Below are positions 47,698-57,224 of a DNA stretch of 64,000 nt, piece after piece; position 1 is the first letter of the stretch, and every line of letters starts with the position of its first letter. Origin of the DNA: Ostreococcus lucimarinus. Its lineage: Eukaryota. Where the stretch lies: NCBI GenBank assembly GCA_000092065.1, contig CP000591.1, one strand, 5' to 3'. The notes below the pieces were generated by a model. It ran no database searches and was not told the DNA's origin. It worked only from the letters and a program-made list of their open reading frames with translations. The translations under genes and the position numbers were made by a program.

Positions 47698-48628
47698 TGC
47701 GTTCGACGACGCTGTCCGTCGCCGCGGCGTCTCTCCGACGTTTACACATCGCCAACATCGCGTGCACGTTCGTCGTCATCGCCGCCCTCGCCGCCTTTTC
47801 CGTCATCCCGAAAAATGTCGCCAAGTTCACCACGTCGTACATCGATCGCAACTCGATCGCGCGCTCCGCGCCGCTCGACAAGATGAACAGTTCGCGTCCG
47901 CCGCGCGTCGCCCGCGCGAGCGCGCTCGCGTTCGCGAAGAACCACATCCTCGAGTTCGAATCCCTCAGCGCCTCCCCGTAGCACAGCTCAAACGATATCC
48001 GATTCCCCGTCGCCGCCCTCACCGCGCTCGCCGTAAACTTGTACCTCAACCGCCGCCCCGCGCCGACGCTCACCACGTCCGCGTGTTTATTCGCGCACGC
48101 GCTCGCGAACGCCCGCTCGCTCGTCGGTTCCAGCGCCAGCACGTCAAACTTCTCCAGATCCTCTCCCAGCGCGAGCATCGCGCGCCGCAGCTCTCCCGGC
48201 TCCCCGAACGCGATCGTGCACCGCGCCAGCGTCCCCGCGCCGTCCCGTCCCTCGCTTTCCCTCACCGCGCGCGTCCGCGCCTCGAGCGCCGCGCGCGCCG
48301 TCGCGCGCTGTCGCTTTGCGTCGTCGCTCCCGTCCACGCGCGCGTCGATCGCGCACGTCCGGTACCCTGCGCGCGTCGTCGCTCGCGTCAGTCGCTTTTT
48401 CGCCCATCCATCCGCGCCTCCCCATCGCGCGTTCGCGTCGCGTGCGCGACGCACCGAGCGCGCGCGCGCGGTCGAGCGCGCGCGCCGTCGTCGCCGCGAT
48501 CGTCGCCGCGTCTCCCGCCGGCGCGCGCACCCGCGCGTCGCACGGCGCGCGCATGCGCGCGTCGCGCGATGCCGAGGGCACGCGTCGCGCCGCCGCCGCC
48601 GCACACGACGACGCGCGCGACTCGACAT
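47681..48628 (-). CDS. RPP30: Ribonuclease P/MRP protein subunit p30 (RPP30/Rpp1, PHP-like domain)
   Basis: GYRTCAIDARVDG...FDVLALEPTSERAFASACANKHADVVSVGAGRRLRYKFTASAVRAATGNRISFELCYGEALRDSNSRMWFFANASALARATRGGRELFILSSGAERAIELRSMYDVVNLATFFGMTEKAARAAMTTN is collinear with human RPP30 (GYSVVAINH...FDLISVKPTEKLFHIACTHLDVDLVCITVTEKLPFYFKRPPINVAIDRGLAFELVYSPAIKDSTMRRYTISSALNLMQICKGKNVIISSAAERPLEIRGPYDVANLGLLFGLSESDAKAAVSTN). The Arg-rich N-terminal 60 aa may be 5' leader. Confidence 0.65.
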   Translation of the reverse strand: MSSRARRRVRRRRRDACPRHRATRACARRATRGCARRRETRRRSRRRRRARSTARARSVRRARDANARWGGADGWAKKRLTRATTRAGYRTCAIDARVDGSDDAKRQRATARAALEARTRAVRESEGRDGAGTLARCTIAFGEPGELRRAMLALGEDLEKFDVLALEPTSERAFASACANKHADVVSVGAGRRLRYKFTASAVRAATGNRISFELCYGEALRDSNSRMWFFANASALARATRGGRELFILSSGAERAIELRSMYDVVNLATFFGMTEKAARAAMTTNVHAMLAMCKRRRDAAATDSVVERMDASA

Positions 48629-50261
48629 GCCGCTCGCGCTCGCGCGCGGCGCGCCCGCGCTCGGCGCGACGCGCGTCGCGCTCGAGCGACGCGAACGCGC
48701 GCGACGCGGCGGCGCGACGCGACGCGACGCGACGCCGCGCGCGATGGGGGCGATGGGCGCGACGCGCGCGGGCGATCGCGCGATGACGCGCTCGAGCGCG
48801 ACGCGCGGGTCGGGCGACGATTACGACCTCGACGCGGGCATCGCGGGCGCGACGCCGGGCGATGGATGGACGCCGACGTCGTACGACGGACGCGGGAGCA
48901 CGGGGGACGTGTACCAAGGGCCGGCGCGGCTGGCGGAGGGATTGCGAAGACACACCGTGCTGGTGTACGTCGCGGACGAGACCGGGATGATCAATCGCGT
49001 CGCGGGGGTGTTCGCGCGACGAGGGTACAACATCGAATCGCTCGCGGTGGGGCTGAACATCGACAAGGCGATTTTTACGATCTCGGTGATTTGCAGCGAC
49101 GGCGACGTGGGGAAGCTGATCAAGCAGGTGAATAAATTGGCCAAGGTGCGAAAGGTGGAGAACGTCACGGATAAGGAGTGCGTGGAACGAGGGTTGATGC
49201 TGCTGAAGGTGAAGTGCGAGCCCGAACAGCGGTCGCAGGTGCTGGAGATTAATCGGATTTTCCGAGCGAGCGTGGTGGACGTGGCGGAGCGGTCGCTGAC
49301 GATGTCGGTGGTGGGGGATCCCGGGAAGAATCGAGCGTTTCAGAGCGCGCTGATGAAGTTCGGGGTGATTCAAGTCGCGCGAACGGGGAAGTTGGCGCTG
49401 AAGAGAGAGCCCGTGTACAGCGAGGCTCGGTCTCGTCGAGTGAAACTCATGGAGGCGATGCGAAAGGCGAAGGACGCGGTGAGCGGATTAAACATCAAGG
49501 AGAAGAGCGCCAAGTACGAGAGCATCTTGGCGTCACGAATCGTTCGCGCGGTCGCGGGGATGGAACACGACGATGACGGCGACTTGCACGTCGGCGACGT
49601 GTACACGTCGCTCGAGAACGACGAAATCGGAGTGTGGGACGTCCCCGTGCTCAGCTCTTCCTTCTCGGGACTGGGGCACGGTAGCGACAAAGTCGACATC
49701 GACAAGATGGACGAAAACGCCAAGTACACGCCGCACACTATCTCTATTTTGGTCGATAACCGCCCGGGCGTGTTGGATTCCATCACCGGCGTGTTCGCTC
49801 GTCGCGGGTACAACATTCAGTCCCTCGGCGTCGGCCCGGAAAGAACTTTCGACATCTCTCGCATTTCCACCGTCGTTCCGGGCAGTACCGAAGACATCGC
49901 GATGCTGCTCAAGCAAATCTTAAAGGTGCCTTACGTCATCTCCGCCGAAGATATCACGATGACGCCGTTCACGGAGCGCGAACTCATGCTCATCAAGGTC
50001 GTCAGCTCTCGCGCGCAACGAGCAGAAATTATCGATTTGTGCGGCATGTTCCGAGCCAAGGTGTGCGACATCTCCGAAGACACCGTCACCATCGAAGTCA
50101 GCGGGCGCCAGCGTAAGATTAACGCCATTCAAGCGCTTCTCGAGCCGTACGGGATTCTGGAAGTTGCGCGCAGCGGTCGCGTCGCGCTCCCGCGCGATTC
50201 GGGCGTCGATTCCAAGCTCATGATGGCGATCGAGTCCGAAAGCGATCTCGACAAGTGGTAA
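48627..50261 (+). CDS. Acetolactate synthase small (regulatory) subunit, plant-type with tandem duplicated ACT-domain repeats and a presequence
   Basis: Internal ATG (aa 197) of ORF 48039..50261. Two ilvH-like repeats: HTVLVYVADETGMINRVAGVFARRGYNIESLAVG... and HTISILVDNRPGVLDSITGVFARRGYNIQSLGVGPE..., each followed by a C-terminal ACT-partner region. The upstream ORF portion overlaps RPP30 antisense and is shadow. Confidence 0.8.
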   Translation: MPLALARGAPALGATRVALERRERARRGGATRRDATPRAMGAMGATRAGDRAMTRSSATRGSGDDYDLDAGIAGATPGDGWTPTSYDGRGSTGDVYQGPARLAEGLRRHTVLVYVADETGMINRVAGVFARRGYNIESLAVGLNIDKAIFTISVICSDGDVGKLIKQVNKLAKVRKVENVTDKECVERGLMLLKVKCEPEQRSQVLEINRIFRASVVDVAERSLTMSVVGDPGKNRAFQSALMKFGVIQVARTGKLALKREPVYSEARSRRVKLMEAMRKAKDAVSGLNIKEKSAKYESILASRIVRAVAGMEHDDDGDLHVGDVYTSLENDEIGVWDVPVLSSSFSGLGHGSDKVDIDKMDENAKYTPHTISILVDNRPGVLDSITGVFARRGYNIQSLGVGPERTFDISRISTVVPGSTEDIAMLLKQILKVPYVISAEDITMTPFTERELMLIKVVSSRAQRAEIIDLCGMFRAKVCDISEDTVTIEVSGRQRKINAIQALLEPYGILEVARSGRVALPRDSGVDSKLMMAIESESDLDKW

Positions 50262-50297
50262 CGCGAAATTTATCAATCGAATACAACAACACAGATC

Positions 50298-51227
50298 CTA
50301 CGCCTCGCCGAGCGCCCCAGGAAACAGGCGTAAAAAGTTATCGCCTCTAATATTCGCGAGGAGCGCGGGATCGTCGTCGCCTATTTGCCGCTCGAGCACT
50401 CGAACCGCGTCGGCGTAGCCTCCCTCCTCGGCGGTGACGAAAGGGTAGTCCGACCCCCAGATCAATCGATGTGGACCGAACACCTTGACGAGCTCGCGCA
50501 ATTGCGTCGCGGTCGAGTCGCCTCCGTCGCTCGTTTCTATGCGCACGCGGAAATGCGCCGAAACCTTCACGCTCACTTGTGGGAAGTCTCGCCCGAGCGC
50601 CTGTAACAACTCAAAGTTCGGATCATCCACGCCCTTGGTGAATCCGAAGTGATCGATCAGCACCGGCACCGTCGGTTCCGCTTTGAGAAGAGCGCGAATT
50701 TCGTCCACGTGCAAATCAAGTCCGTTGAAGCACATGAAACCCACCACCGCGGGCGGCGTTCGCGCCGCGCACGCGCGCATCATTTTTCTCCCTATTTCGC
50801 CATCCATACCCTTGCCATTCGGCCATAGCCCTGGATTGAATCGGACGCCGCGAAAACGTCCCGCGAGGAGCTTCTCCAACGCCTCGACGCCGGCGTCTCC
50901 CGCGCTCGGGTTCGCCAGACACATCCCCACGAAGCGATTGGCGTGCGTCTCCAACGCACGCTCTACGTACGTGTGATCGAACCCTAGGTTTATCGGTTGC
51001 ACGATCATCGCCGCGCGCACGCCGTTGGCGTCCATCGCGGCGATGAGCTCATTCGCCGCCCCGGGAACTGGAGGCGCTTTGCCGTCTTCGTACGCGAAAT
51101 CCTCCGCGCTCGGCCACACGTGCACGTGCGCGTCGATTATGGACGCGCGCATCGCGATGCGCCGGCTCGAAACGCGCGTTGAGACGGTGACGCTCGGTCG
51201 AACTCGCCTCGCCGCGGCCGCGAGCAT
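50298..51227 (-). CDS. Amidohydrolase-2 family metal-dependent hydrolase (ACMSD/LigI/lactonase-like), presequence-like N-terminus
   Basis: IIDAHVHVW metal-binding N-terminus, then HANRFVGMC, VRFNPG, PVLIDHFG, LIWGSDYPF (TIM-barrel amidohydrolase_2 signature order). The track ORF opens on GTG at 51275. I used the ATG at aa 17 (51227); the next ATG (aa 42) is 51152. Confidence 0.75.
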   Translation of the reverse strand: MLAAAARRVRPSVTVSTRVSSRRIAMRASIIDAHVHVWPSAEDFAYEDGKAPPVPGAANELIAAMDANGVRAAMIVQPINLGFDHTYVERALETHANRFVGMCLANPSAGDAGVEALEKLLAGRFRGVRFNPGLWPNGKGMDGEIGRKMMRACAARTPPAVVGFMCFNGLDLHVDEIRALLKAEPTVPVLIDHFGFTKGVDDPNFELLQALGRDFPQVSVKVSAHFRVRIETSDGGDSTATQLRELVKVFGPHRLIWGSDYPFVTAEEGGYADAVRVLERQIGDDDPALLANIRGDNFLRLFPGALGEA

Positions 51228-51293
51228 GGTTATGCGGCTGCGCAGCTGCGGCGTCGAGAGGAACGCACTTCTCACGAGAGCGGTGAAACAGTT

Positions 51294-52403
51294 TTAAGCC
51301 TCTTCGATGAGCGCTAACACTTCCAGCGCGGTGCCTCGACACAGCGTCACGCCCGCGCCGCCGTGACCGTAGGCGTGGATGAGCGTCGCGTCCGCCGGGT
51401 CTCGTTCGCATCGAACTACGGTTCGCGAGGGGCGCAGACCGACGTTTGTGCCGATGACTTTCGTTTCATCGAGCTCAGGCCACAGCCGTTTACACTTCGC
51501 GATGATATCTCGCTCATCTGCGTCGTCTGGCTCGAGTGAATCGTTGTCGACTTGCGCCGTTCCGCCGAGAACCGTGCAGTCGGCTCGCGGGATCAAATAC
51601 GCGAGAGCGTTGGGATCGTCGTCGAATAATCCGTAGCCGCAATCTTGCTTCAGGTACACGACTTGTCCTCGCACCGGCTTGACGAGATCGTCGTTCACCA
51701 GGCGCCTCGCGCCGAGACCCGTGCAATTGACCACGAACGCTCGCTCGCTATTCGACGCGAACGCTCTCGCCTCCCGCACGTCTGCGAGCGTCCGCGTCTC
51801 AAATTTCACCCCCAGCGCTTCGCATCGCGTCCTGAGCCAAGGCAAGAATTTAGGCATCGCGATCACGGGCACGTCGAACTCGTATCCACCCGCGTATTTC
51901 TCGTCGTGCTCTCCCCGTTCGAGCGCGCGGTAGTGCTCCACCGCGTTCGCCCATCCCGCCGCCGGCGCCGGCGCCTTTAAAAATTCTCGACATCGTCGCA
52001 TCTCCACCCCGCACGCCCCGTCCTCGCGCGCGAGCTCGCGATACCACTCGTACGATTTAATCGCCCACGCGTCGCTCAGCGCCGCGGGTTCCGTGCGCAC
52101 GATGAACGGGAACCAAAACGCCGCCGCGACGCTCGACGTCGTCCGCTCGAACGACGCCGCGACGACGCGCACGTCCATCCCGCGCTCCGCCAGCGTCAGC
52201 GCGACCGTCAGTCCGATGACGCCGCCGCCGACGACGACCGCGGACGCGTCGCCGTCCGTCGCGTCGGCCCTCGCGCCGGCGCGCGCGCGCGCGCGACGCG
52301 CGACGGTTCTGGTCGCGCCGCGCCTCGCGACGTCCGCCGTCGCGCGCCGCGGCGCGCGCGCGTCGCGGCGCGACGACGCGCGAGGCGCGCCGCGCGCGCG
52401 CAT
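51294..52403 (-). CDS. D-amino-acid oxidase / D-aspartate oxidase family FAD-dependent oxidoreductase
   Basis: N-terminal dinucleotide fold VVVGGGVIGLTVALTLAERG. DAO-like internal blocks (AAAFWFPFIV, VPVIAMPKFLPWL, VVNCTGLGARRL, VRGQVVYL) and the C-terminal HAYGHGGAGVTL signature (DAAO YNYGHGGYG). Start set at the internal ATG (aa 95) to avoid running into the divergent neighbour at 52657. The first ATG is 52685. Confidence 0.75.
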   Translation of the reverse strand: MRARGAPRASSRRDARAPRRATADVARRGATRTVARRARARAGARADATDGDASAVVVGGGVIGLTVALTLAERGMDVRVVAASFERTTSSVAAAFWFPFIVRTEPAALSDAWAIKSYEWYRELAREDGACGVEMRRCREFLKAPAPAAGWANAVEHYRALERGEHDEKYAGGYEFDVPVIAMPKFLPWLRTRCEALGVKFETRTLADVREARAFASNSERAFVVNCTGLGARRLVNDDLVKPVRGQVVYLKQDCGYGLFDDDPNALAYLIPRADCTVLGGTAQVDNDSLEPDDADERDIIAKCKRLWPELDETKVIGTNVGLRPSRTVVRCERDPADATLIHAYGHGGAGVTLCRGTALEVLALIEEA

Positions 52404-52656
52404 GTCGCTCGACGCGCGCCGCGCGACGCGCGACGCGCGCGACGCCGCGCGGTGATTTGTACGGCGTCGATCCAACGGCCGACGGCGGTCGACGACGCCG
52501 CACACGACGACGCGACGCACGGTCGAGCCGAGGCGACGCGCGCGCGAAGGACGCGCCGAGGACGCGCCCGTCGCGCGCGAACGCCGCGAATCGACGCGCG
52601 CGCGAGGGAGATCGACGACGCGAGGGCGTTGAATTTGAAGGATTGGATTCGTCGAG

Positions 52657-54330
52657 ATGAATTCTGAATTCACGCCGGAAAACACGCGCTCGAACGCGCT
52701 GTTCGCGTCGGACGCGGCGCTGGACGCGGTGTCGACGCCGGGCGGCGACGCGCCGCGCGATGGGTTCGAATTCGAGGCGCTGAAAGACCCGAGGATCGAT
52801 TGGGGGGCGATCGCGCGGTGCGACTCGAGAGACGCGCGGCGACGACGCGATATCGACGCGCTGGAGAGCGTGCTCGAGGCGTGCGTGCGAGCGGACGTGG
52901 ACAGCGTGACGAATCAAGACATGTGCGAACCGAAACGGGGGCGGGAGCTGACGAAATTGCTGCAGATGTTGGTGGAATATTTGTTGCACGTGCAGGAGGC
53001 GCTGAGCGAGGGCAAGGCGAAGGCGGAGCGAGACGCGGAGGGGTGGAAGGATCGGGCGAGGACGGAGCGAGATGAGGCGAGAAAATCCGCGAGGGAGTTA
53101 AGGCTGGCGATGGAGGCGCACGAGGCGGAGTTGATCGCGGTTGCGGCGGAATACGCGAAGAAGAGGAATAATCCGGATAACGCCGAGCTCGAGGACGCGC
53201 GCAGGCGAGGGGAGTCGATGGCGGCTGAACGCGCGGCGAAAGACTTGGAAAAGCGATTGCGCGAACAAAGAGAGCTTTTCGATAGTGCCGTCGATCGCAT
53301 GCGCGCGGCGCACGCGGAGGCGCAGGCGGAGGCCGCGCGCGAGTTGTCGGCTCGAAAGGCGGAGCTCGCGTCGGCGCGCGCGCAGTACGTGGCGTCATCG
53401 ACGGAGTCCACGAAGGAGGCGAATAGGATGGTCGCTGACGCACAAGCGCTCATTCGTGAGGCACGCGAGAAGGCGGAGTTGGAAAAGTCCAACGTCGCGC
53501 GCGTGCGCTCCGAGCTCAACGCTGCGGTGGAGGCGACTCAAAGGCACAAGCGTTCGTTGGTCGACGTCAAGTCGGAGCTCACGCGACTCAAGGAAGATTT
53601 CAAATTCGAACACGAGTCGAACGCCGAGTTACGAAAAGCACTAGAGCGCCGCGACGAAGAGCGCAAGTTGATGCGCGAACAAATTGAGCGTCTCCACGGC
53701 AAGCAGAAATCGTCGATGACGGAGGAAATGGCCGAGTTGACGAACATGCGAGAACTGGCAAAGAACAACTACGCCGAAATCGAACGCCTGAAGCGCGAAA
53801 ACGAAGTGCTTCGCGAGGATAAGAATGCACAATCCACTTGGGTCGCGGAGGAAAAGAAGCGTTGGGTGTCGGCGAATGAGCAAATCTTACAAGCCGAGTT
53901 GACAGAGAAGGACAACGCCATCGCTCAGTTGCGCGAAGAGATTTCGCAATTGAGAAACGACATCGCCACGGAGCGTTCGCGCAAGATGATCACGATTAAA
54001 CCAATCATCGCAGAGTACGAGGCTCGAGCGCAAGCTGCGCCGCCCGTGGCCCCCAAACCCGCGGTGAAGGCAGCGAAAGCGCGCAAGACGCTCGAGCCCC
54101 CGCCGAGCGACGTCCAAGACATGGATGGGGCGCTCCACGCCGCCATGCTTGATCTCGACGTCGACTTGGACGCGGTCGCCGAGGCTGGTTTGGACGACGC
54201 CACGTTCCAGGAAGCTATGGCGAAGTTCGAAGCGGTTCAAATGCAAGACGTACCGAAGGAGTTGCGCGCAAAGTATGCGTTGTCGCGCGCTAAGATTCAA
54301 AAGGAACTCGACGGCGTCGCGGTTCGTTGA
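52657..54330 (+). CDS. Coiled-coil protein with a DZIP1/Iguana-like N-terminal domain (candidate cilium/basal-body protein)
   Basis: True ATG at 52657. N-terminus FEFEALKDPRIDWGAIARCDSRD...IDALESVLEACVRADVD...LTKLLQMLVEYLLHVQEAL resembles the Dzip-like N domain (F.F...IDW..I...D...LE..L...KLL.L.QL.IEYLL..Q). The remaining 400 aa is continuous heptad coiled coil. Moderate-to-weak call. Confidence 0.4.
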   Translation: MNSEFTPENTRSNALFASDAALDAVSTPGGDAPRDGFEFEALKDPRIDWGAIARCDSRDARRRRDIDALESVLEACVRADVDSVTNQDMCEPKRGRELTKLLQMLVEYLLHVQEALSEGKAKAERDAEGWKDRARTERDEARKSARELRLAMEAHEAELIAVAAEYAKKRNNPDNAELEDARRRGESMAAERAAKDLEKRLREQRELFDSAVDRMRAAHAEAQAEAARELSARKAELASARAQYVASSTESTKEANRMVADAQALIREAREKAELEKSNVARVRSELNAAVEATQRHKRSLVDVKSELTRLKEDFKFEHESNAELRKALERRDEERKLMREQIERLHGKQKSSMTEEMAELTNMRELAKNNYAEIERLKRENEVLREDKNAQSTWVAEEKKRWVSANEQILQAELTEKDNAIAQLREEISQLRNDIATERSRKMITIKPIIAEYEARAQAAPPVAPKPAVKAAKARKTLEPPPSDVQDMDGALHAAMLDLDVDLDAVAEAGLDDATFQEAMAKFEAVQMQDVPKELRAKYALSRAKIQKELDGVAVR

Positions 54331-54361
54331 AATATGTATTAAAGTCTCATATCAATCTCGT

Positions 54362-56080
54362 CTAAAGCTCGCAAAATTCACCCGTCTCCTCGGCAATCGA
54401 CTGCTCCGTGCGACGGACGATTTCAATCAAATCTTCTCCGCCGATCGCGCCGTAACGGAGGCAGTGCGTCTCGACCATGACGTTCGTCGCGTCGACGACT
54501 TCGCGCGAATCCTTACCGAACGTTCGCCGCGCGTTGTTCGCCAACATTGTGCTCTGTTTGCACGCCGCGAATCCACCGGCATCCACCGCGCTCAAATCCT
54601 CTATGATCGTCTTAACGAGCGCGTGCTTCATCTCGCCCGCTCCTGTGACCGAAAGCGCGAGCGAAAGAGATTCGTACATCGAGTAGCACGACATGCGCGC
54701 CATGGCGAGCTGCGCGCGACTGAGATTGAGCGCCGCGAGGCGACTCTCGTACCACCCTCGAAGCTCGATCAACGGGTTCACGTTCGGCACCGTCTTGCCC
54801 TTCGTTTTCTTCATCTCCGCCAACTCTTCCTTGAAATCCTTGAGCACGGGCTTGAGCTTGCGCTTGAGCTCGTTGACCGCGCACGTAATCGGCCCGGCGC
54901 CCTCATCGTTTTCTTCCGCCTCGTCGGCTTTCTTTTCCTCGCTCACGTCGCCCGTGGATTCGAAAGCGCATCGCGCGCAGTTGCACATGTACCCGCGTCG
55001 ACTGGCGAACGCGTCGCGGTCTTTCTTCGGCATGAGCGTGTCGTAGTACTTCATCGTAATCTCCGCCCCCGCCGGGAGATTTTGCGAGGCGAAGACGAGC
55101 ATGATTTGCCCGACGTTGATGCGATGGCAATTCGGCGCGCACGAGTGGTTGATGAAGCTCGGCAGCGGCCAGACGCCGCACAGACGGCGCCCAGAGATGG
55201 CGCAGTTGGCGACGACTTTCGGGATGAACGCCAGTTCTTCCGGGCTCTCGGGCGCGGGTGCGTTTTCCTTATTCGCCGCGCTGATGTGCTTGCGAAACAC
55301 GCTCATCTCCGGCGCGTCTTTTTGTTCATCCTCGCTCGACGCCGGCAGAGCCTTGAGAATCGCCCAATCGGCCGGGTGCGCGCGCGCAGCCTCGTAAAGA
55401 CCGCGGACGAGGTTTTGTTCCACCGTCTTGCCGAACGACGCCGAGCTCAGCGGGCTCTGCACCATGAGCAAATCTCCCGCCGCGACGGCGCTCGTCGTCA
55501 CCAAGCCGCGACGACCGTCGGAGAGCTTGGACACTCGAACCACACCGATGTAATCCGCACAACGGCGGAAACTCGCACCCATGCGGTTCAAATACAACGC
55601 TCCGAGATCGTACGCCCCCGTGAACGCTTGCGCCGTGAGCATATCGCATTCGAGCTTGACTTTTTCCAGCGTCGCCCGAACCGCCGCGTCCTCCGGCGCG
55701 TCGGCGAGACGCGATCCCTCATCTGCCGTCTTCGCCGCATCCACGTATCGCGCCATCCCGTTCAACGCCATGCTCTTCTTATAAATCGCCTTCAGTTCCA
55801 TCGCCTTATCCCCCTTCGAGCACTCCAACGCCTTCGTCGCGCACTCCAACGCCTTCTCGAACACTCGCGCTCGCAAGTAGCACTCCGCCTTGTTCGCGTA
55901 CGCGCTCGCGTCCGACCCATTCAACTTCAGCGCCGCGTCATACGCCGCGATCGCGCCGAGATAATCCCCCTTCGCAAACTTTTCGTTTCCTTCCACTCGA
56001 ATCGCGTCCGCTTCGTCCACTTTCTGCGCCTTCTTCGACTTCGGCAGCGCCGCGCCCATGCCGCCCAGTCCGAACGGCAT
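54362..56080 (-). CDS. TPR + SET domain lysine methyltransferase-like protein
   Basis: Internal ATG (aa 367) of ORF 54362..57178. N-terminal TPR triplet (ADAIRVEGNEKFAKGDYLGAIAAYDAALKLNGSDASAYANKAECYLRARVFEKALECATKALE). SET core (GRRGLVTTSAVAAGDLL...FINHSCAPNC...MLVFASQNLPAGAEITMKYYD) and a post-SET Cys cluster (GYMCNCARC). The upstream part of the track ORF is Ser/Ala/Arg shadow. Confidence 0.7.
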   Translation of the reverse strand: MPFGLGGMGAALPKSKKAQKVDEADAIRVEGNEKFAKGDYLGAIAAYDAALKLNGSDASAYANKAECYLRARVFEKALECATKALECSKGDKAMELKAIYKKSMALNGMARYVDAAKTADEGSRLADAPEDAAVRATLEKVKLECDMLTAQAFTGAYDLGALYLNRMGASFRRCADYIGVVRVSKLSDGRRGLVTTSAVAAGDLLMVQSPLSSASFGKTVEQNLVRGLYEAARAHPADWAILKALPASSEDEQKDAPEMSVFRKHISAANKENAPAPESPEELAFIPKVVANCAISGRRLCGVWPLPSFINHSCAPNCHRINVGQIMLVFASQNLPAGAEITMKYYDTLMPKKDRDAFASRRGYMCNCARCAFESTGDVSEEKKADEAEENDEGAGPITCAVNELKRKLKPVLKDFKEELAEMKKTKGKTVPNVNPLIELRGWYESRLAALNLSRAQLAMARMSCYSMYESLSLALSVTGAGEMKHALVKTIIEDLSAVDAGGFAACKQSTMLANNARRTFGKDSREVVDATNVMVETHCLRYGAIGGEDLIEIVRRTEQSIAEETGEFCEL

Positions 56081-56486: not shown

Positions 56487-57224
56487 ATGTCCGCGCCCGT
56501 CGACGTCGCGCGCGCCGCCGCCGCGCGCGTTCGCGCGGACGCGTCCAGCACCTCGCGCGCGGGCTCCGGCGTCGTCGTGCGCCACCGCGGCGTCGCGTGC
56601 GTGCTCACCGCCGCGCACGTCGCGTCGTTCGCGGGCGCGAAGAATGCGCTTCGCGTCGAGCTCGCGAGCGGCGCCGCGCGGCGCGGGCGCGTCGTCGGCG
56701 TGCACGACGCGCTCGACCTCGCCGTCGTGTACCTCGACGGCGACCTCGACGGCGCGGCGACGATGGAGCCGGGCGAGGCGCGCGTCGGCGACGAGGCGCG
56801 CGCGCTGGGGACGGCGCAGCGGTACGCGGCGGCGACGGCGGCGTGCGCGGACGCGATCCGAGGACGACGCGAGACCGGACGCGTGTTGAAGATACACCGC
56901 GATGACCGCGGTGACGACACGCACGCGATGCACGACGCGCGCGTGCTGGCGGGACAGTCGGGCGGGGCGCTCGTGCGCGAGACGGATGGGAAACTGTTGG
57001 GCGTGCACAGTTTCGGCGACGCGTTTTGGGGCGGGAGCAGGGACGTGTGCGTGCTGGTGAACGCGGCGACGCTGGACGCGATCGAGATCGCGCGCGATGG
57101 CGTCGATCCCGAGGTGTACGCGACGGCGCGGGTGAACGCGATGATTTTTCGTTCGAGCGACGAGGCGCTGAAGCGCATGGCGCCCGAGTTGTCGGCGAAG
57201 CAGCGCGCGTCGTGGATCTTTTGA
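56487..57224 (+). CDS. Trypsin-like (S1/chymotrypsin-fold) serine protease domain protein, small (245 aa)
   Basis: Internal ATG (aa 144) of ORF 56058..57224. Catalytic-triad context in order: GSGVVVRHRGVACVLTAAHV (His), DLAVVYLDGD (Asp), VLAGQSGGALVRETDGKLLGVHSFG (GDSGG-type Ser). The antisense ORFs are Arg-rich shadows. Confidence 0.5.
   Translation: MSAPVDVARAAAARVRADASSTSRAGSGVVVRHRGVACVLTAAHVASFAGAKNALRVELASGAARRGRVVGVHDALDLAVVYLDGDLDGAATMEPGEARVGDEARALGTAQRYAAATAACADAIRGRRETGRVLKIHRDDRGDDTHAMHDARVLAGQSGGALVRETDGKLLGVHSFGDAFWGGSRDVCVLVNAATLDAIEIARDGVDPEVYATARVNAMIFRSSDEALKRMAPELSAKQRASWIF

What the first reader, a model, noticed from the sequence alone, without database searches (positions are those of the whole stretch)
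51152..52403. D-amino-acid oxidase and an amidohydrolase-2 enzyme are co-directional, in the same reading frame, and separated by a single stop codon plus 18 nt
The DAO-family CDS (frame ending at TAA 51296..51294) and the downstream amidohydrolase ORF (51275..50298) are on the same strand and in the same codon phase. Between them: ...LALIEEA * N C F T A L then (GTG)RSAFLSTPQLRSRITM-LAAAARR... The first in-frame ATG of the amidohydrolase is only 66 nt after the DAO stop; the next is 141 nt. A gap that small leaves no room for an independent promoter. There are three possibilities: a translational fusion disrupted by a sequencing error or a recent nonsense mutation; a stop-codon readthrough or bicistronic arrangement; or two very tightly packed genes that form a metabolic pair (oxidase then hydrolase/lactonase). 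Same-frame placement happens by chance one time in three, so the frame coincidence alone is weak evidence.
Basis: seen in the sequence. Interest (0 to 1): 0.5.

Follow-up and report, generated by a model that had tools for sequence, protein, structure and literature searches.

The report
Two tightly packed Ostreococcus genes
A D-amino-acid oxidase gene and an amidohydrolase gene lie 66 bases apart in the very compact genome of the alga Ostreococcus lucimarinus, and their shared reading frame is a coincidence, not a broken fusion or a read-through.

Summary
The DAO CDS (52403..51294, minus strand) ends at TAA 51296-51294. The amidohydrolase-2 ORF follows in the same frame, with ATGs 66 and 141 nt downstream.

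The interpretation as something special fails.
- The window is Ostreococcus lucimarinus CCE9901 or a near-identical strain.
- The TAA is present in six assemblies of this lineage. DAO ends at the family's natural C-terminus.
- No DAO+amidohydrolase fusion turned up in the searches run.
- Five related lineages keep the two genes adjacent with 47-66 nt spacers, but the relative frame is 0, 2, 1, 1, 2. The closest relative (DAO 93% identical) has +1/-2 indels in the spacer.
- Substitutions are non-coding in pattern up to ATG 51227 and synonymous after it. The amidohydrolase therefore starts at 51227 with a 25-residue presequence, and the public 284-aa model is probably 25 codons short.
- Gaps of 60-88 nt between same-strand genes, and 10-44 nt between convergent stops, are routine in this window.
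- DAO carries nine internal ATGs, which argues against an algal-type bicistron.

Best reading: two independent genes with abutting or overlapping transcripts. It is ordinary and of low interest.

The parts
51294..52403 (-). D-amino-acid oxidase family gene: 369 aa with an Arg/Ala-rich N-terminal extension of about 54 residues, then the GxGxxG FAD fold. Stop TAA at 51296-51294.
   Evidence: PF01266 at 151 bits against a cutoff of 27.9, covering profile 2-350 of 353. Best solved relatives are human D-aspartate oxidase 6rkf (E 3e-36) and D-amino-acid oxidases. The C-terminus coincides with that of archaeal, bacterial and algal homologues. The exact protein is on independent ENA and Logan contigs.
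51228..51293 (-). 66-nt non-coding spacer between the DAO stop and the amidohydrolase start. It has no ATG and no in-frame stop.
   Evidence: Against the closest relative L007 it shows 5 substitutions, none at a third codon position, plus +1 and -2 indels that shift the frame. Spacers in other lineages are 65, 58, 63, 64 and 47 nt and are not alignable in sequence. The RNA fold is no more stable than shuffles, z = -0.22.
51280..51288 (-). TTTCACCGC, a possible initiator-like element and candidate start of the amidohydrolase mRNA. This is a lead only.
   Evidence: Related motifs sit in the spacers of three other lineages: TTTCACCGC (A'), TTTCATTCACGCG (B1) and TTTCATTCGCGCG (B2). TCACA and CATTC are the most enriched 5-mers in the 100 nt upstream of ATGs in this window, but the counts are small (5 against 1.1 expected, 6 against 1.9) and not significant after correction.
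51153..51227 (-). 25-codon presequence of the amidohydrolase, MLAAAARRVRPSVTVSTRVSSRRIA. It is basic, has no acidic residue, and is probably an organelle-targeting peptide. The public gene model omits it.
   Evidence: Against L007 there are 6 substitutions, 5 of them third-position synonymous, and no indels. Compared with the spacer, Fisher p is about 0.013 by my own calculation from the counts. All five lineages, and more distant green-lineage homologues, carry an N-terminal extension ahead of the DAHxHVW motif.
50298..51227 (-). Amidohydrolase-2 gene (COG3618, LigI-like lactonase branch), 309 aa from ATG 51227. The public model XP_001420419.1 starts at ATG 51152 (284 aa).
   Evidence: PF04909 at 98.6 bits against a cutoff of 26.4. 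The 284-aa part is 100% identical to the O. lucimarinus CCE9901 protein. The nearest solved structures are a putative 2-pyrone-4,6-dicarboxylate hydrolase 2ffi (E 3e-13) and LigI 4d8l (E 4e-8). NCBIfam equivalog cutoffs are not reached.
48627..50261 (+). Convergent neighbour: acetolactate synthase small subunit. Its stop lies only 36 nt from the amidohydrolase stop.
   Evidence: ORF list. ACT and ALS_ss_C domains are recorded on the orthologous genes of related contigs. A 36-nt stop-to-stop distance means the 3' UTRs are very short or overlap.
52657..54330 (+). Divergent neighbour: Dzip-like coiled-coil protein. Its ATG is 253 nt from the DAO ATG, across a stretch of about 80% G+C.
   Evidence: PF13815 on the orthologous called gene.

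Best explanation
These are two separate nuclear genes of Ostreococcus lucimarinus, packed as tightly as this genome usually packs genes.

DAO is translated from ATG 52403 to its natural end at TAA 51296-51294. The amidohydrolase is translated on its own from ATG 51227, not from GTG 51275 and not from the annotated ATG 51152. Its product is a 309-aa precursor with a 25-residue basic presequence.

The shared reading frame is a coincidence confined to this lineage.

Shown here:
- the stop is real;
- the DAO C-terminus is the natural one;
- the frame varies between lineages;
- the boundary between non-coding and coding DNA lies at 51227;
- gaps this small are routine in the window.

Inferred:
- each gene has its own capped, polyadenylated mRNA;
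- the amidohydrolase mRNA starts inside the ATG-free 183 nt upstream of 51227, that is the spacer plus the last 115 nt of the DAO CDS, possibly at TTTCACCGC;
- the DAO mRNA ends in the spacer or inside the amidohydrolase gene, so the two transcripts abut or overlap, as reported for Ostreococcus in general.
For: Identity: the amidohydrolase is 100% identical to XP_001420419.1 of O. lucimarinus CCE9901.

The stop is real:
- the junction with TAA and a 66-nt spacer is shared by the window, L001, L002, L014, L015 and L016;
- the other four lineages have TAA, TAG or TGA at the same place.

The DAO C-terminus is natural: Pfam profile 350 of 353, and homologues from algae, archaea and bacteria end within a few residues of it.

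The frame is not conserved:
- A (this window): 66 nt, frame 0;
- A' (L007-9, L017; DAO 93% identical): 65 nt, frame 2, through +1 and -2 indels;
- B1: 58 nt, frame 1;
- a B1 variant (L022): 63 nt, frame 0, but with an in-frame TAG in the spacer;
- B2: 64 nt, frame 1;
- C: 47 nt, frame 2.

The coding boundary is at 51227. Substitutions by codon position against L007 are: spacer 3/2/0 plus indels, presequence 0/1/5, amidohydrolase core 6/0/11, DAO core 13/4/32.

Packing is normal for this genome:
- same-strand gaps in this window are 25, 28, 60, 66, 76, 88, 138... nt;
- convergent stop-to-stop gaps are 10, 31, 36, 44... nt;
- in a lineage with a different upstream neighbour (L006, DEAD-box helicase) the amidohydrolase homologue sits 69 nt behind it.

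Literature:
- Ostreococcus intergenic regions average under 200 bp (PMC2367439, PMC2850359);
Against: No transcript data could be examined, so one long DAO-amidohydrolase RNA is not excluded.

The spacer has stayed at 47-66 nt across five lineages whose DAO identity falls to 48%. That could reflect a constraint rather than plain compaction.

There is no TGTA within 700 nt downstream of the DAO stop (0.85 expected), although TGTA is 4-fold enriched after stops in this window. This is weak, because 21 of 34 genes also lack TGTA within 100 nt.

No promoter or initiator motif is established for Ostreococcus, so the proposed transcription start is only a lead.
Confidence: 0.85

Rival explanations
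1. Bicistronic unit. One capped mRNA starting at the DAO promoter carries both ORFs, as at the polycistronic loci described in Chlamydomonas, Chromochloris and Auxenochlorella, and the amidohydrolase is translated from that RNA.
For: The inter-ORF distance is very short (66 nt) and stays at 47-66 nt in five lineages. Polycistronic expression is established in green algae, and about one third of those pairs are in frame by chance (PMC7896298). No TGTA follows the DAO stop until the amidohydrolase 3' end. In L087, L089 and L091 the same gene block lacks DAO, and there the amidohydrolase faces the Dzip gene directly. DAO may therefore have been inserted between the amidohydrolase and its former promoter.
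Against: The demonstrated mechanism is leaky scanning. It needs a weak ORF1 start context and few AUGs before ORF2 (PMC11291117). Here the DAO CDS plus spacer holds 10 ATGs, 9 of them internal, against 11.8 +/- 3.2 expected, so there is no depletion. ORF1 is 1,110 nt, against medians of 444-600 nt for upstream ORFs (PMC7896298). From general knowledge, reinitiation after a 369-codon ORF is very inefficient. The spacer has no conserved sequence between distant lineages and no unusual structure. In this genome short gaps are the rule, not a mark of special loci.
Confidence: 0.08
2. Functionally coupled pair. The adjacency is kept by selection because the oxidase and the hydrolase act in one pathway or must be co-regulated. 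This could hold together with the main explanation.
For: DAO followed by the amidohydrolase, same strand, is found in five lineages with DAO identity down to 48%. Both proteins have basic N-terminal extensions, so both may be sent to an organelle.
Against: The whole block SET / Dzip / DAO / amidohydrolase / ALS small subunit / RNase P p30 is conserved in those lineages, so the adjacency is simply inherited synteny. L087, L089 and L091 keep the block without DAO. O. tauri, L006 and L026 have the amidohydrolase homologue behind a DEAD-box helicase, and L013 has a DAO between EamA and a glucan-water dikinase. Contigs with Bathycoccus-like and Micromonas-like G+C have no DAO within 6 kb of the amidohydrolase. 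No DAO fusion appears among the 66 close amidohydrolase relatives or the 150 best representatives out of 1.84 billion proteins. Of those 150, the ten I scanned with Pfam carry only NADAR, HAD or no other domain. I know of no pathway that joins a D-amino-acid oxidase to a LigI-like lactonase; that is my own knowledge, not a test.
Confidence: 0.1
3. Single fusion protein, made by stop-codon read-through or by a 75-nt in-frame intron (GT at 51320 to AG at 51246) that removes the stop.
For: The two ORFs share a frame and there is no second stop in the spacer. A GT...AG pair 75 nt apart can be drawn across the stop (read from the sequence). Gene fusions have been reported in Ostreococcus genomes (PMC2850359).
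Against: The frame differs in four of the five other spacer versions. The fifth (L022) has an in-frame TAG. The closest relative differs by a net 1 nt. Spacer substitutions show no codon pattern. The stop is UAA followed by A, the tightest termination context in eukaryotes (general knowledge). The DAO residues that such an intron would delete belong to the conserved C-terminal helix and end where all homologues end. A fusion would bury the amidohydrolase presequence inside the protein.
Confidence: 0.02
4. Artefact or very recent event. The TAA is a sequencing error or a fresh nonsense mutation in what was a fusion gene.
For: None beyond the shared frame.
Against: The same TAA is present in the reference-like window, in two ENA or JGI metagenome lineage copies, in two Logan assemblies from different runs and in further JGI contigs. 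All related lineages have a stop there too. No fused relative was found.
Confidence: 0.01

Closest known systems
Gene packing and overlapping UTRs in Ostreococcus genomes (O. tauri, O. lucimarinus), and overlapping transcription in other compacted eukaryotic genomes (Williams et al. 2005, as cited in PMC2367439)
   Same: Same-strand gaps run to tens of bases and convergent stops lie 10-44 nt apart. There is no room for classical separate promoter and terminator regions. Published averages are under 200 bp, and overlapping UTRs are reported (PMC2367439, PMC2850359, PMC4378021).
   Different: Nothing differs in kind. At 66 nt the gap is in the lower third of the same-strand gaps in this window, not an outlier. 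Overlap of these two particular transcripts is inferred, not observed.
Polycistronic (bicistronic) nuclear loci of green algae (Gallaher et al. 2021, PMC7896298; leaky-scanning mechanism, PMC11291117)
   Same: Two co-directional ORFs in a green alga with a short inter-ORF distance. An in-frame arrangement is seen in about one third of the known cases, by chance.
   Different: ORF1 is long (1,110 nt) and is not depleted of AUGs (10 observed, 11.8 expected). In Ostreococcus a short distance does not set a locus apart. No transcript evidence is available. The pair is not among the conserved small-ORF1 types (TOM22, OST4, CDC26/TTM3) named in those papers.
D-amino-acid / D-aspartate oxidase family (PF01266; solved structures 6rkf, 2du8, 1dao, 1c0i)
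   Same: Full-length match, the GxGxxG motif and the conserved HGGAGVT motif near the C-terminus.
   Different: It has a basic N-terminal extension of about 54 residues and ends in -IEEA, not in a -S/A-K/H-L-type peroxisomal signal like the animal and yeast enzymes (the comparison is from general knowledge). The nearest relatives outside the algae are marine group II archaeal and actinobacterial proteins at 45-47% identity.
Amidohydrolase-2 superfamily, COG3618 / LigI-like lactonase branch (PF04909; 2ffi, 4d8l)
   Same: TIM-barrel hydrolase signature across the full profile. An N-terminal DAHxHVW motif, and conserved His and Asp in the C-terminal half.
   Different: It falls far below the cutoffs for named enzymes: 4-sulfomuconolactone hydrolase 57 bits against 500, and L-fucono-1,5-lactonase 19 against 400. 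It belongs to a green-lineage clade of uncharacterised proteins that carry targeting-like extensions (Selaginella, Diphasiastrum, Cryptomeria, prasinophytes).

Membership tests
D-amino-acid oxidase family (PF01266, DAAO/DDO branch) | Full-length match to the family profile above the curated cutoff | tested here: met
   151.4 bits against a cutoff of 27.9. Residues 55-362 cover profile positions 2-350 of 353.
D-amino-acid oxidase family (PF01266, DAAO/DDO branch) | N-terminal GxGxxG dinucleotide-binding motif and the conserved C-terminal HGGxG motif | tested here: met
   VVVGGGVIGL at residues 55-64. H347 G348 G349 A350 G351 V352 T353 are invariant in the 11-sequence alignment.
D-amino-acid oxidase family (PF01266, DAAO/DDO branch) | Closest characterised relatives are DAAO or DDO rather than glycine oxidase, sarcosine oxidase or MnmC | tested here: met
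   Solved structures: D-aspartate oxidase E 3e-36 and D-amino-acid oxidases E about 1e-32, against glycine oxidase E about 1e-7. ThiO equivalog 94 bits against a cutoff of 250.8.
D-amino-acid oxidase family (PF01266, DAAO/DDO branch) | Oxidase activity on D-amino acids and its substrate range | not testable with these tools
   Needs an enzyme assay.
Amidohydrolase-2 (PF04909), LigI-like / COG3618 lactonases | Full-length profile match above the cutoff | tested here: met
   98.6 bits against a cutoff of 26.4, profile 1-288 of 289.
Amidohydrolase-2 (PF04909), LigI-like / COG3618 lactonases | Conserved catalytic-site residues of the barrel: N-terminal HxH, a later His, and a C-terminal Asp | tested here: met
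   D48, H50 and H52 are nearly invariant. H209 is invariant. D276, in WGSDYPF, is nearly invariant. Numbering is that of the GTG-ORF in a 17-sequence alignment.
Amidohydrolase-2 (PF04909), LigI-like / COG3618 lactonases | Assignment to a named enzyme (4-sulfomuconolactone hydrolase, L-fucono-1,5-lactonase, LigI, ACMSD) | tested here: not met
   NCBIfam 57.2 bits against 500, and 18.7 against 400. The best solved relatives reach only E 3e-13 and E 4e-8. The substrate is unknown.
Green-algal polycistronic loci (leaky-scanning type) | One mature mRNA carries both ORFs | not testable with these tools
Contigs L002 and L014 span the junction, but their library type is unknown.
Green-algal polycistronic loci (leaky-scanning type) | Few or no AUGs between the 5' end and the ORF2 start | tested here: not met
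   10 ATGs in the DAO CDS plus spacer against 11.8 +/- 3.2 in shuffles. Several are in a good context, for example GGGATGG. Criterion from PMC11291117.
Green-algal polycistronic loci (leaky-scanning type) | Small upstream ORF (medians 444-600 nt) | tested here: not met
   ORF1 is 1,110 nt. Medians from PMC7896298.
Green-algal polycistronic loci (leaky-scanning type) | Weak start context at ORF1 and a stronger one at ORF2 | tested here: inconclusive
   DAO has GCGACATGC and the amidohydrolase has ATAACCATGC, with A at -3. No Ostreococcus consensus was built to score them.
Programmed stop-codon read-through | The downstream frame is conserved and evolves as coding sequence | tested here: not met
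   Relative frames are 0, 2, 1, 1, 2 across the lineages. Spacer substitutions by codon position are 3/2/0, plus indels.
Programmed stop-codon read-through | Leaky stop context or a stimulatory RNA structure | tested here: not met
   The stop is UAA followed by A. The fold z-score is -0.22. The ranking of stop contexts is general knowledge.
Fusion protein (Rosetta-stone link between DAO and Amidohydro_2) | Fused homologues exist in some genome | tested here: not met
   None among 66 close amidohydrolase hits, the 120 best DAO hits, or the 150 best representatives of 1.84 billion proteins. Of those 150, ten long ones were scanned with Pfam and carry NADAR, HAD or nothing extra.

The most novel reading that the evidence does not exclude
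The DAO-amidohydrolase pair is a conserved nested or bicistronic transcription unit. The amidohydrolase has no promoter of its own outside DAO. Either its mRNA starts from an element embedded in the last ~115 nt of the DAO coding sequence or in the 47-66-nt spacer, or it is made from a DAO read-through transcript by a mechanism other than leaky scanning. The arrangement may have arisen when DAO was inserted between the amidohydrolase and the bidirectional promoter it still shares with the Dzip gene in the L087 lineage.
Probability: 0.1. Interest if true: 0.4.

Novelty: already known. Interest (0 to 1): 0.12.

Why it matters
It matters little beyond annotation hygiene.

What the work does show:
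- An in-frame single-stop junction in a compact algal genome should not be read as a broken fusion without comparative data.
- The public model of the O. lucimarinus amidohydrolase (XP_001420419.1) probably lacks its first 25 codons. Those codons form a likely targeting peptide, which affects localisation predictions.
- The locus is a clean case for asking where transcripts start and end when only 47-66 nt separate same-strand genes.

If the pair proved to be co-transcribed, it would extend algal polycistrons to long upstream ORFs and to the Mamiellophyceae. The evidence points the other way.

Tried and rejected
- The GTG 51275 start is rejected. It comes from a bacterial ORF rule, and the region upstream of 51227 evolves as non-coding DNA and takes a 2-nt deletion in L007.
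- A 75-nt intron across the stop is rejected because the frame varies between lineages and the DAO C-terminus is conserved.
- RNA structure in the spacer: no signal, z = -0.22.
- The bacterial-type promoter and terminator scan found nothing. It is not relevant to a eukaryote anyway.
- TGTA as a poly(A) signal. It is 4-fold enriched after stops (17 against 4.1) but absent for 700 nt after the DAO stop. With 0.85 expected and most genes lacking it, no conclusion follows.
- Upstream 5-mer enrichment. TCACA and CATTC top the list, but counts of 5-6 are too small, so this stays a lead only.
- ATG-free leader. The nearest upstream ATG is 175-203 nt away in every lineage, but it sits in a conserved DAO codon context, so it says nothing about where transcription starts.
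- Transcript ends from short JGI contigs. Eleven partial cluster members are all C-terminal amidohydrolase fragments. The one contig read in full (L095) joins such a fragment to the convergent ALS small-subunit gene. It has no poly(A/T) end and its library type is unknown.
- Naming the metagenomic lineages. Cluster look-ups gave O. lucimarinus, O. tauri and Bathycoccus only.
- An exact look-up of the 309-aa amidohydrolase found nothing, because gene callers used the second ATG.
Full report
**Observation**

On the minus strand the DAO ORF runs from ATG 52403 to TAA 51296-51294. After the stop the same frame stays open through GTG 51275, ATG 51227 (66 nt after the stop) and ATG 51152 (141 nt after it), and ends at TAG 50300-50298. 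Pfam assigns PF01266 DAO (E 6e-44, profile 2-350 of 353) and PF04909 Amidohydro_2 (E 7e-28, full profile, starting at residue 47 of the GTG-ORF). Every coordinate in the finding is correct.

**Source and gene identities**

The 284-aa amidohydrolase that starts at ATG 51152 is 100% identical to XP_001420419.1 of Ostreococcus lucimarinus CCE9901. The window, at 64% G+C, is therefore that genome or a near-identical strain.

DAO is closest among solved structures to human D-aspartate oxidase and to D-amino-acid oxidases (E 3e-36 to 1e-29).

The amidohydrolase is only distantly related to LigI-type lactonases (E 3e-13 to 4e-8). It fails the cutoffs of all named NCBIfam enzymes. It belongs to an uncharacterised green-lineage clade.

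**Is the stop real, and was there ever a fusion?**

- The junction is the same in the window, L001, L002, L014, L015 and L016 (TAA stop, 66-nt spacer). These come from different metagenomes and sequencing runs.
- DAO ends within a few residues of where algal, archaeal and bacterial homologues end.
- No protein combining the two domains appears among 66 close amidohydrolase relatives or the 120 best DAO relatives.
- None appears among the 150 best representatives from 1.84 billion proteins either. The ten longest-looking of these that I scanned carry NADAR, HAD or no extra domain.

A sequencing error, a recent nonsense mutation and an ancestral fusion are all rejected.

**Comparative test of the frame**

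A scan of metagenome contigs, plus exact look-ups, gave five lineages in which DAO lies directly upstream of the amidohydrolase on the same strand.

| Lineage | Loci | DAO stop | Spacer | Relative frame |
|---|---|---|---|---|
| A | window, L001, L002, L014-16 | TAA | 66 nt | 0 |
| A' (DAO 93%, amidohydrolase 97% identical) | L007-9, L017 | TAA | 65 nt | 2 |
| B1 | L004, L010-12, L018, L020 | TAG | 58 nt | 1 |
| B1 variant | L022 | TAG | 63 nt | 0, with an in-frame TAG in the spacer |
| B2 | L019, L024 | TAG | 64 nt | 1 |
| C (DAO 48% identical) | L027-29, L086 | TGA | 47 nt | 2 |

In A' the frame change comes from a +1 and a -2 indel inside the spacer. The shared frame is therefore peculiar to one lineage, which is what a one-in-three coincidence predicts.

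Within the window, 6 of 18 same-strand pairs in my gene list have spacers divisible by 3. Three of those 18 actually have an omitted opposite-strand gene between them. About 1.4 short 'in-frame and open' cases are expected, and one is seen.

**Where the amidohydrolase starts**

Substitutions between the window and L007, counted by codon position:

| Segment | Position 1 / 2 / 3 | Indels |
|---|---|---|
| DAO core | 13 / 4 / 32 | 3 nt (one event) |
| Spacer 51293-51228 | 3 / 2 / 0 | frame-breaking |
| 51227-51153 | 0 / 1 / 5 | none |
| Amidohydrolase core | 6 / 0 / 11 | none |

The switch from a non-coding to a coding pattern falls at ATG 51227. Fisher p is about 0.013 for presequence against spacer, by my own calculation from these counts.

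All five lineages begin with a basic extension free of acidic residues (MLAAAARR... or MRLA...). More distant green-lineage homologues carry longer extensions, some with no Met next to the catalytic domain.

The gene therefore encodes a 309-aa precursor with a probable targeting peptide. The public 284-aa model is probably truncated. GTG 51275 is irrelevant.

**Is the gap unusual?**

It is not.

- Using the first-ATG rule with G+C by codon position (GC3) as the coding test, same-strand gaps in this window are 25, 28, 60, 66, 76, 88, 138, 159, 171, 181... nt.
- Convergent stop-to-stop gaps are 10, 31, 36, 44... nt. The 36-nt gap is the one between the amidohydrolase and the ALS small-subunit gene.
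- Independent gene calls on related contigs give 77, 88 and 115 nt for the neighbouring same-strand pairs.
- In L006 the amidohydrolase homologue has a different upstream neighbour, a DEAD-box helicase, and the gap is 69 nt.
- Published work gives average intergenic regions under 200 bp for Ostreococcus. It also reports overlapping transcripts, and a trial RNA-seq assembly that concatenated genes 'due to overlapping UTRs' (PMC2367439, PMC2850359, PMC4378021).

**Bicistron test**

Green algae do have polycistronic mRNAs (PMC7896298). The demonstrated mechanism is leaky scanning, which needs a weak ORF1 start and few AUGs before ORF2 (PMC11291117).

- DAO plus the spacer contains 10 ATGs against 11.8 +/- 3.2 expected.
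- ORF1 is 1,110 nt, against medians of 444-600 nt.
- The spacer has no unusual fold and no sequence conserved between distant lineages.

Co-transcription cannot be excluded without RNA data. Productive translation of ORF2 from such an RNA is unlikely.

**Read-through and splicing**

- The stop is UAA followed by A, the tightest termination context (general knowledge).
- The frame is not conserved, and the spacer evolves as non-coding DNA.
- A 75-nt GT...AG interval can be drawn across the stop. It would delete conserved DAO C-terminal residues, and it is out of frame in the sister lineage.

Both ideas are rejected.

**Metabolic pair**

- The adjacency is conserved, but so is the whole block SET / Dzip / DAO / amidohydrolase / ALS small subunit / RNase P p30. 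It is inherited synteny.
- L087, L089 and L091 keep the block without DAO.
- O. tauri, L006 and L026 have the amidohydrolase homologue elsewhere, and L013 has a DAO elsewhere.
- Contigs with Bathycoccus-like and Micromonas-like G+C show no linkage.
- There is no fusion link and no pathway rationale.

**Mechanism**

Shown: two complete, separately terminated and separately initiated coding sequences.

Inferred: two mRNAs whose ends abut or overlap.
- The amidohydrolase transcription start must lie in the ATG-free 183 nt upstream of 51227.
- A TTTCAC / TTTCATTC element shared by four spacers, together with TCACA and CATTC enrichment upstream of ATGs in the window, is a weak lead for an initiator.

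**Verdict**

The by-products are a probable start-codon correction, a DAO presence/absence difference within a conserved block, and DAO's closeness to marine archaeal homologues.

Noticed in passing
window 51153-51227 (-): The public O. lucimarinus amidohydrolase model (XP_001420419.1, 284 aa) starts at the second ATG. Substitution pattern and homologues indicate a start at 51227, which adds a 25-residue basic presequence.
   Followed up: yes
L087:1903-4760, L089, L091 compared with window 50298-54330: A related lineage keeps the block SET / Dzip / amidohydrolase / ALS small subunit / RNase P p30 but has no DAO. There the amidohydrolase (50% identical) faces the Dzip gene across about 230 nt. 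DAO was either inserted into the block or lost from it.
   Followed up: partly
window 51294-52403 (-): The nearest non-algal relatives of this DAO are marine group II archaeal MAG proteins (Poseidoniales, Thalassarchaeaceae) and actinobacterial oxidases at 45-47% identity. That is about as close as the most distant Ostreococcus-like DAO (48%). Horizontal transfer is possible.
   Followed up: no
L003:8001-9015 (O. tauri CAID01000003.2): The O. tauri RCC4221 gene model P0051 is a chimera of a DctP-like part (PF03480) and only the C-terminal third of the amidohydrolase. Another O. tauri strain has an intact 284-aa protein (OUS44042.1).
   Followed up: no
window 13488/13499, 24204/24249, 50261/50298, 54330/54362: Convergent gene pairs have stop codons only 10-44 nt apart. 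Their 3' UTRs must therefore be tiny or run into the opposite coding sequence.
   Followed up: partly
window 48400-48800, 52200-52500, 56500-56800: G+C peaks of 0.8 or more mark divergent 5' ends and Arg/Ala-rich N-terminal coding regions. G+C falls to about 0.5 at convergent 3' ends (50200-50300, 54200-54400). The DAO-amidohydrolase junction shows only a small bump of 0.66-0.68.
   Followed up: no
window, 100 nt downstream of 34 stop codons: TGTA is about 4-fold enriched after stops (17 against 4.1 expected). This recalls the UGUAA poly(A) signal of other green algae. It is present for only 13 of 34 genes and is absent for 700 nt after the DAO stop.
   Followed up: partly
window, 100 nt upstream of 34 start codons; spacer 51280-51288: TCACA and CATTC are the most enriched upstream 5-mers. 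TCACATCGC-like strings recur 13-65 nt before several ATGs (for example upstream of 18266, 43746 and 45954). This may be an initiator-like element, but the counts are small.
   Followed up: partly
L095:1-1893, L096 (JGI contigs): Many 1-2.2-kb JGI contigs carry only a C-terminal fragment of the amidohydrolase (67-245 aa). The two that were read (L095, L096) join that fragment to the convergent ALS small-subunit gene. They could be ALS transcripts whose 3' ends overlap the amidohydrolase. The library type is unknown and no poly(A/T) end was seen.
   Followed up: partly
window 52243-52403 (-): The DAO N-terminal extension diverges very fast from the 93%-identical relative: 24.8 substitutions per 100 nt, with no codon-position bias (16/13/11) and with indels. 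That fits a weakly constrained targeting peptide, or poor alignment in CG-rich low-complexity sequence.
   Followed up: no
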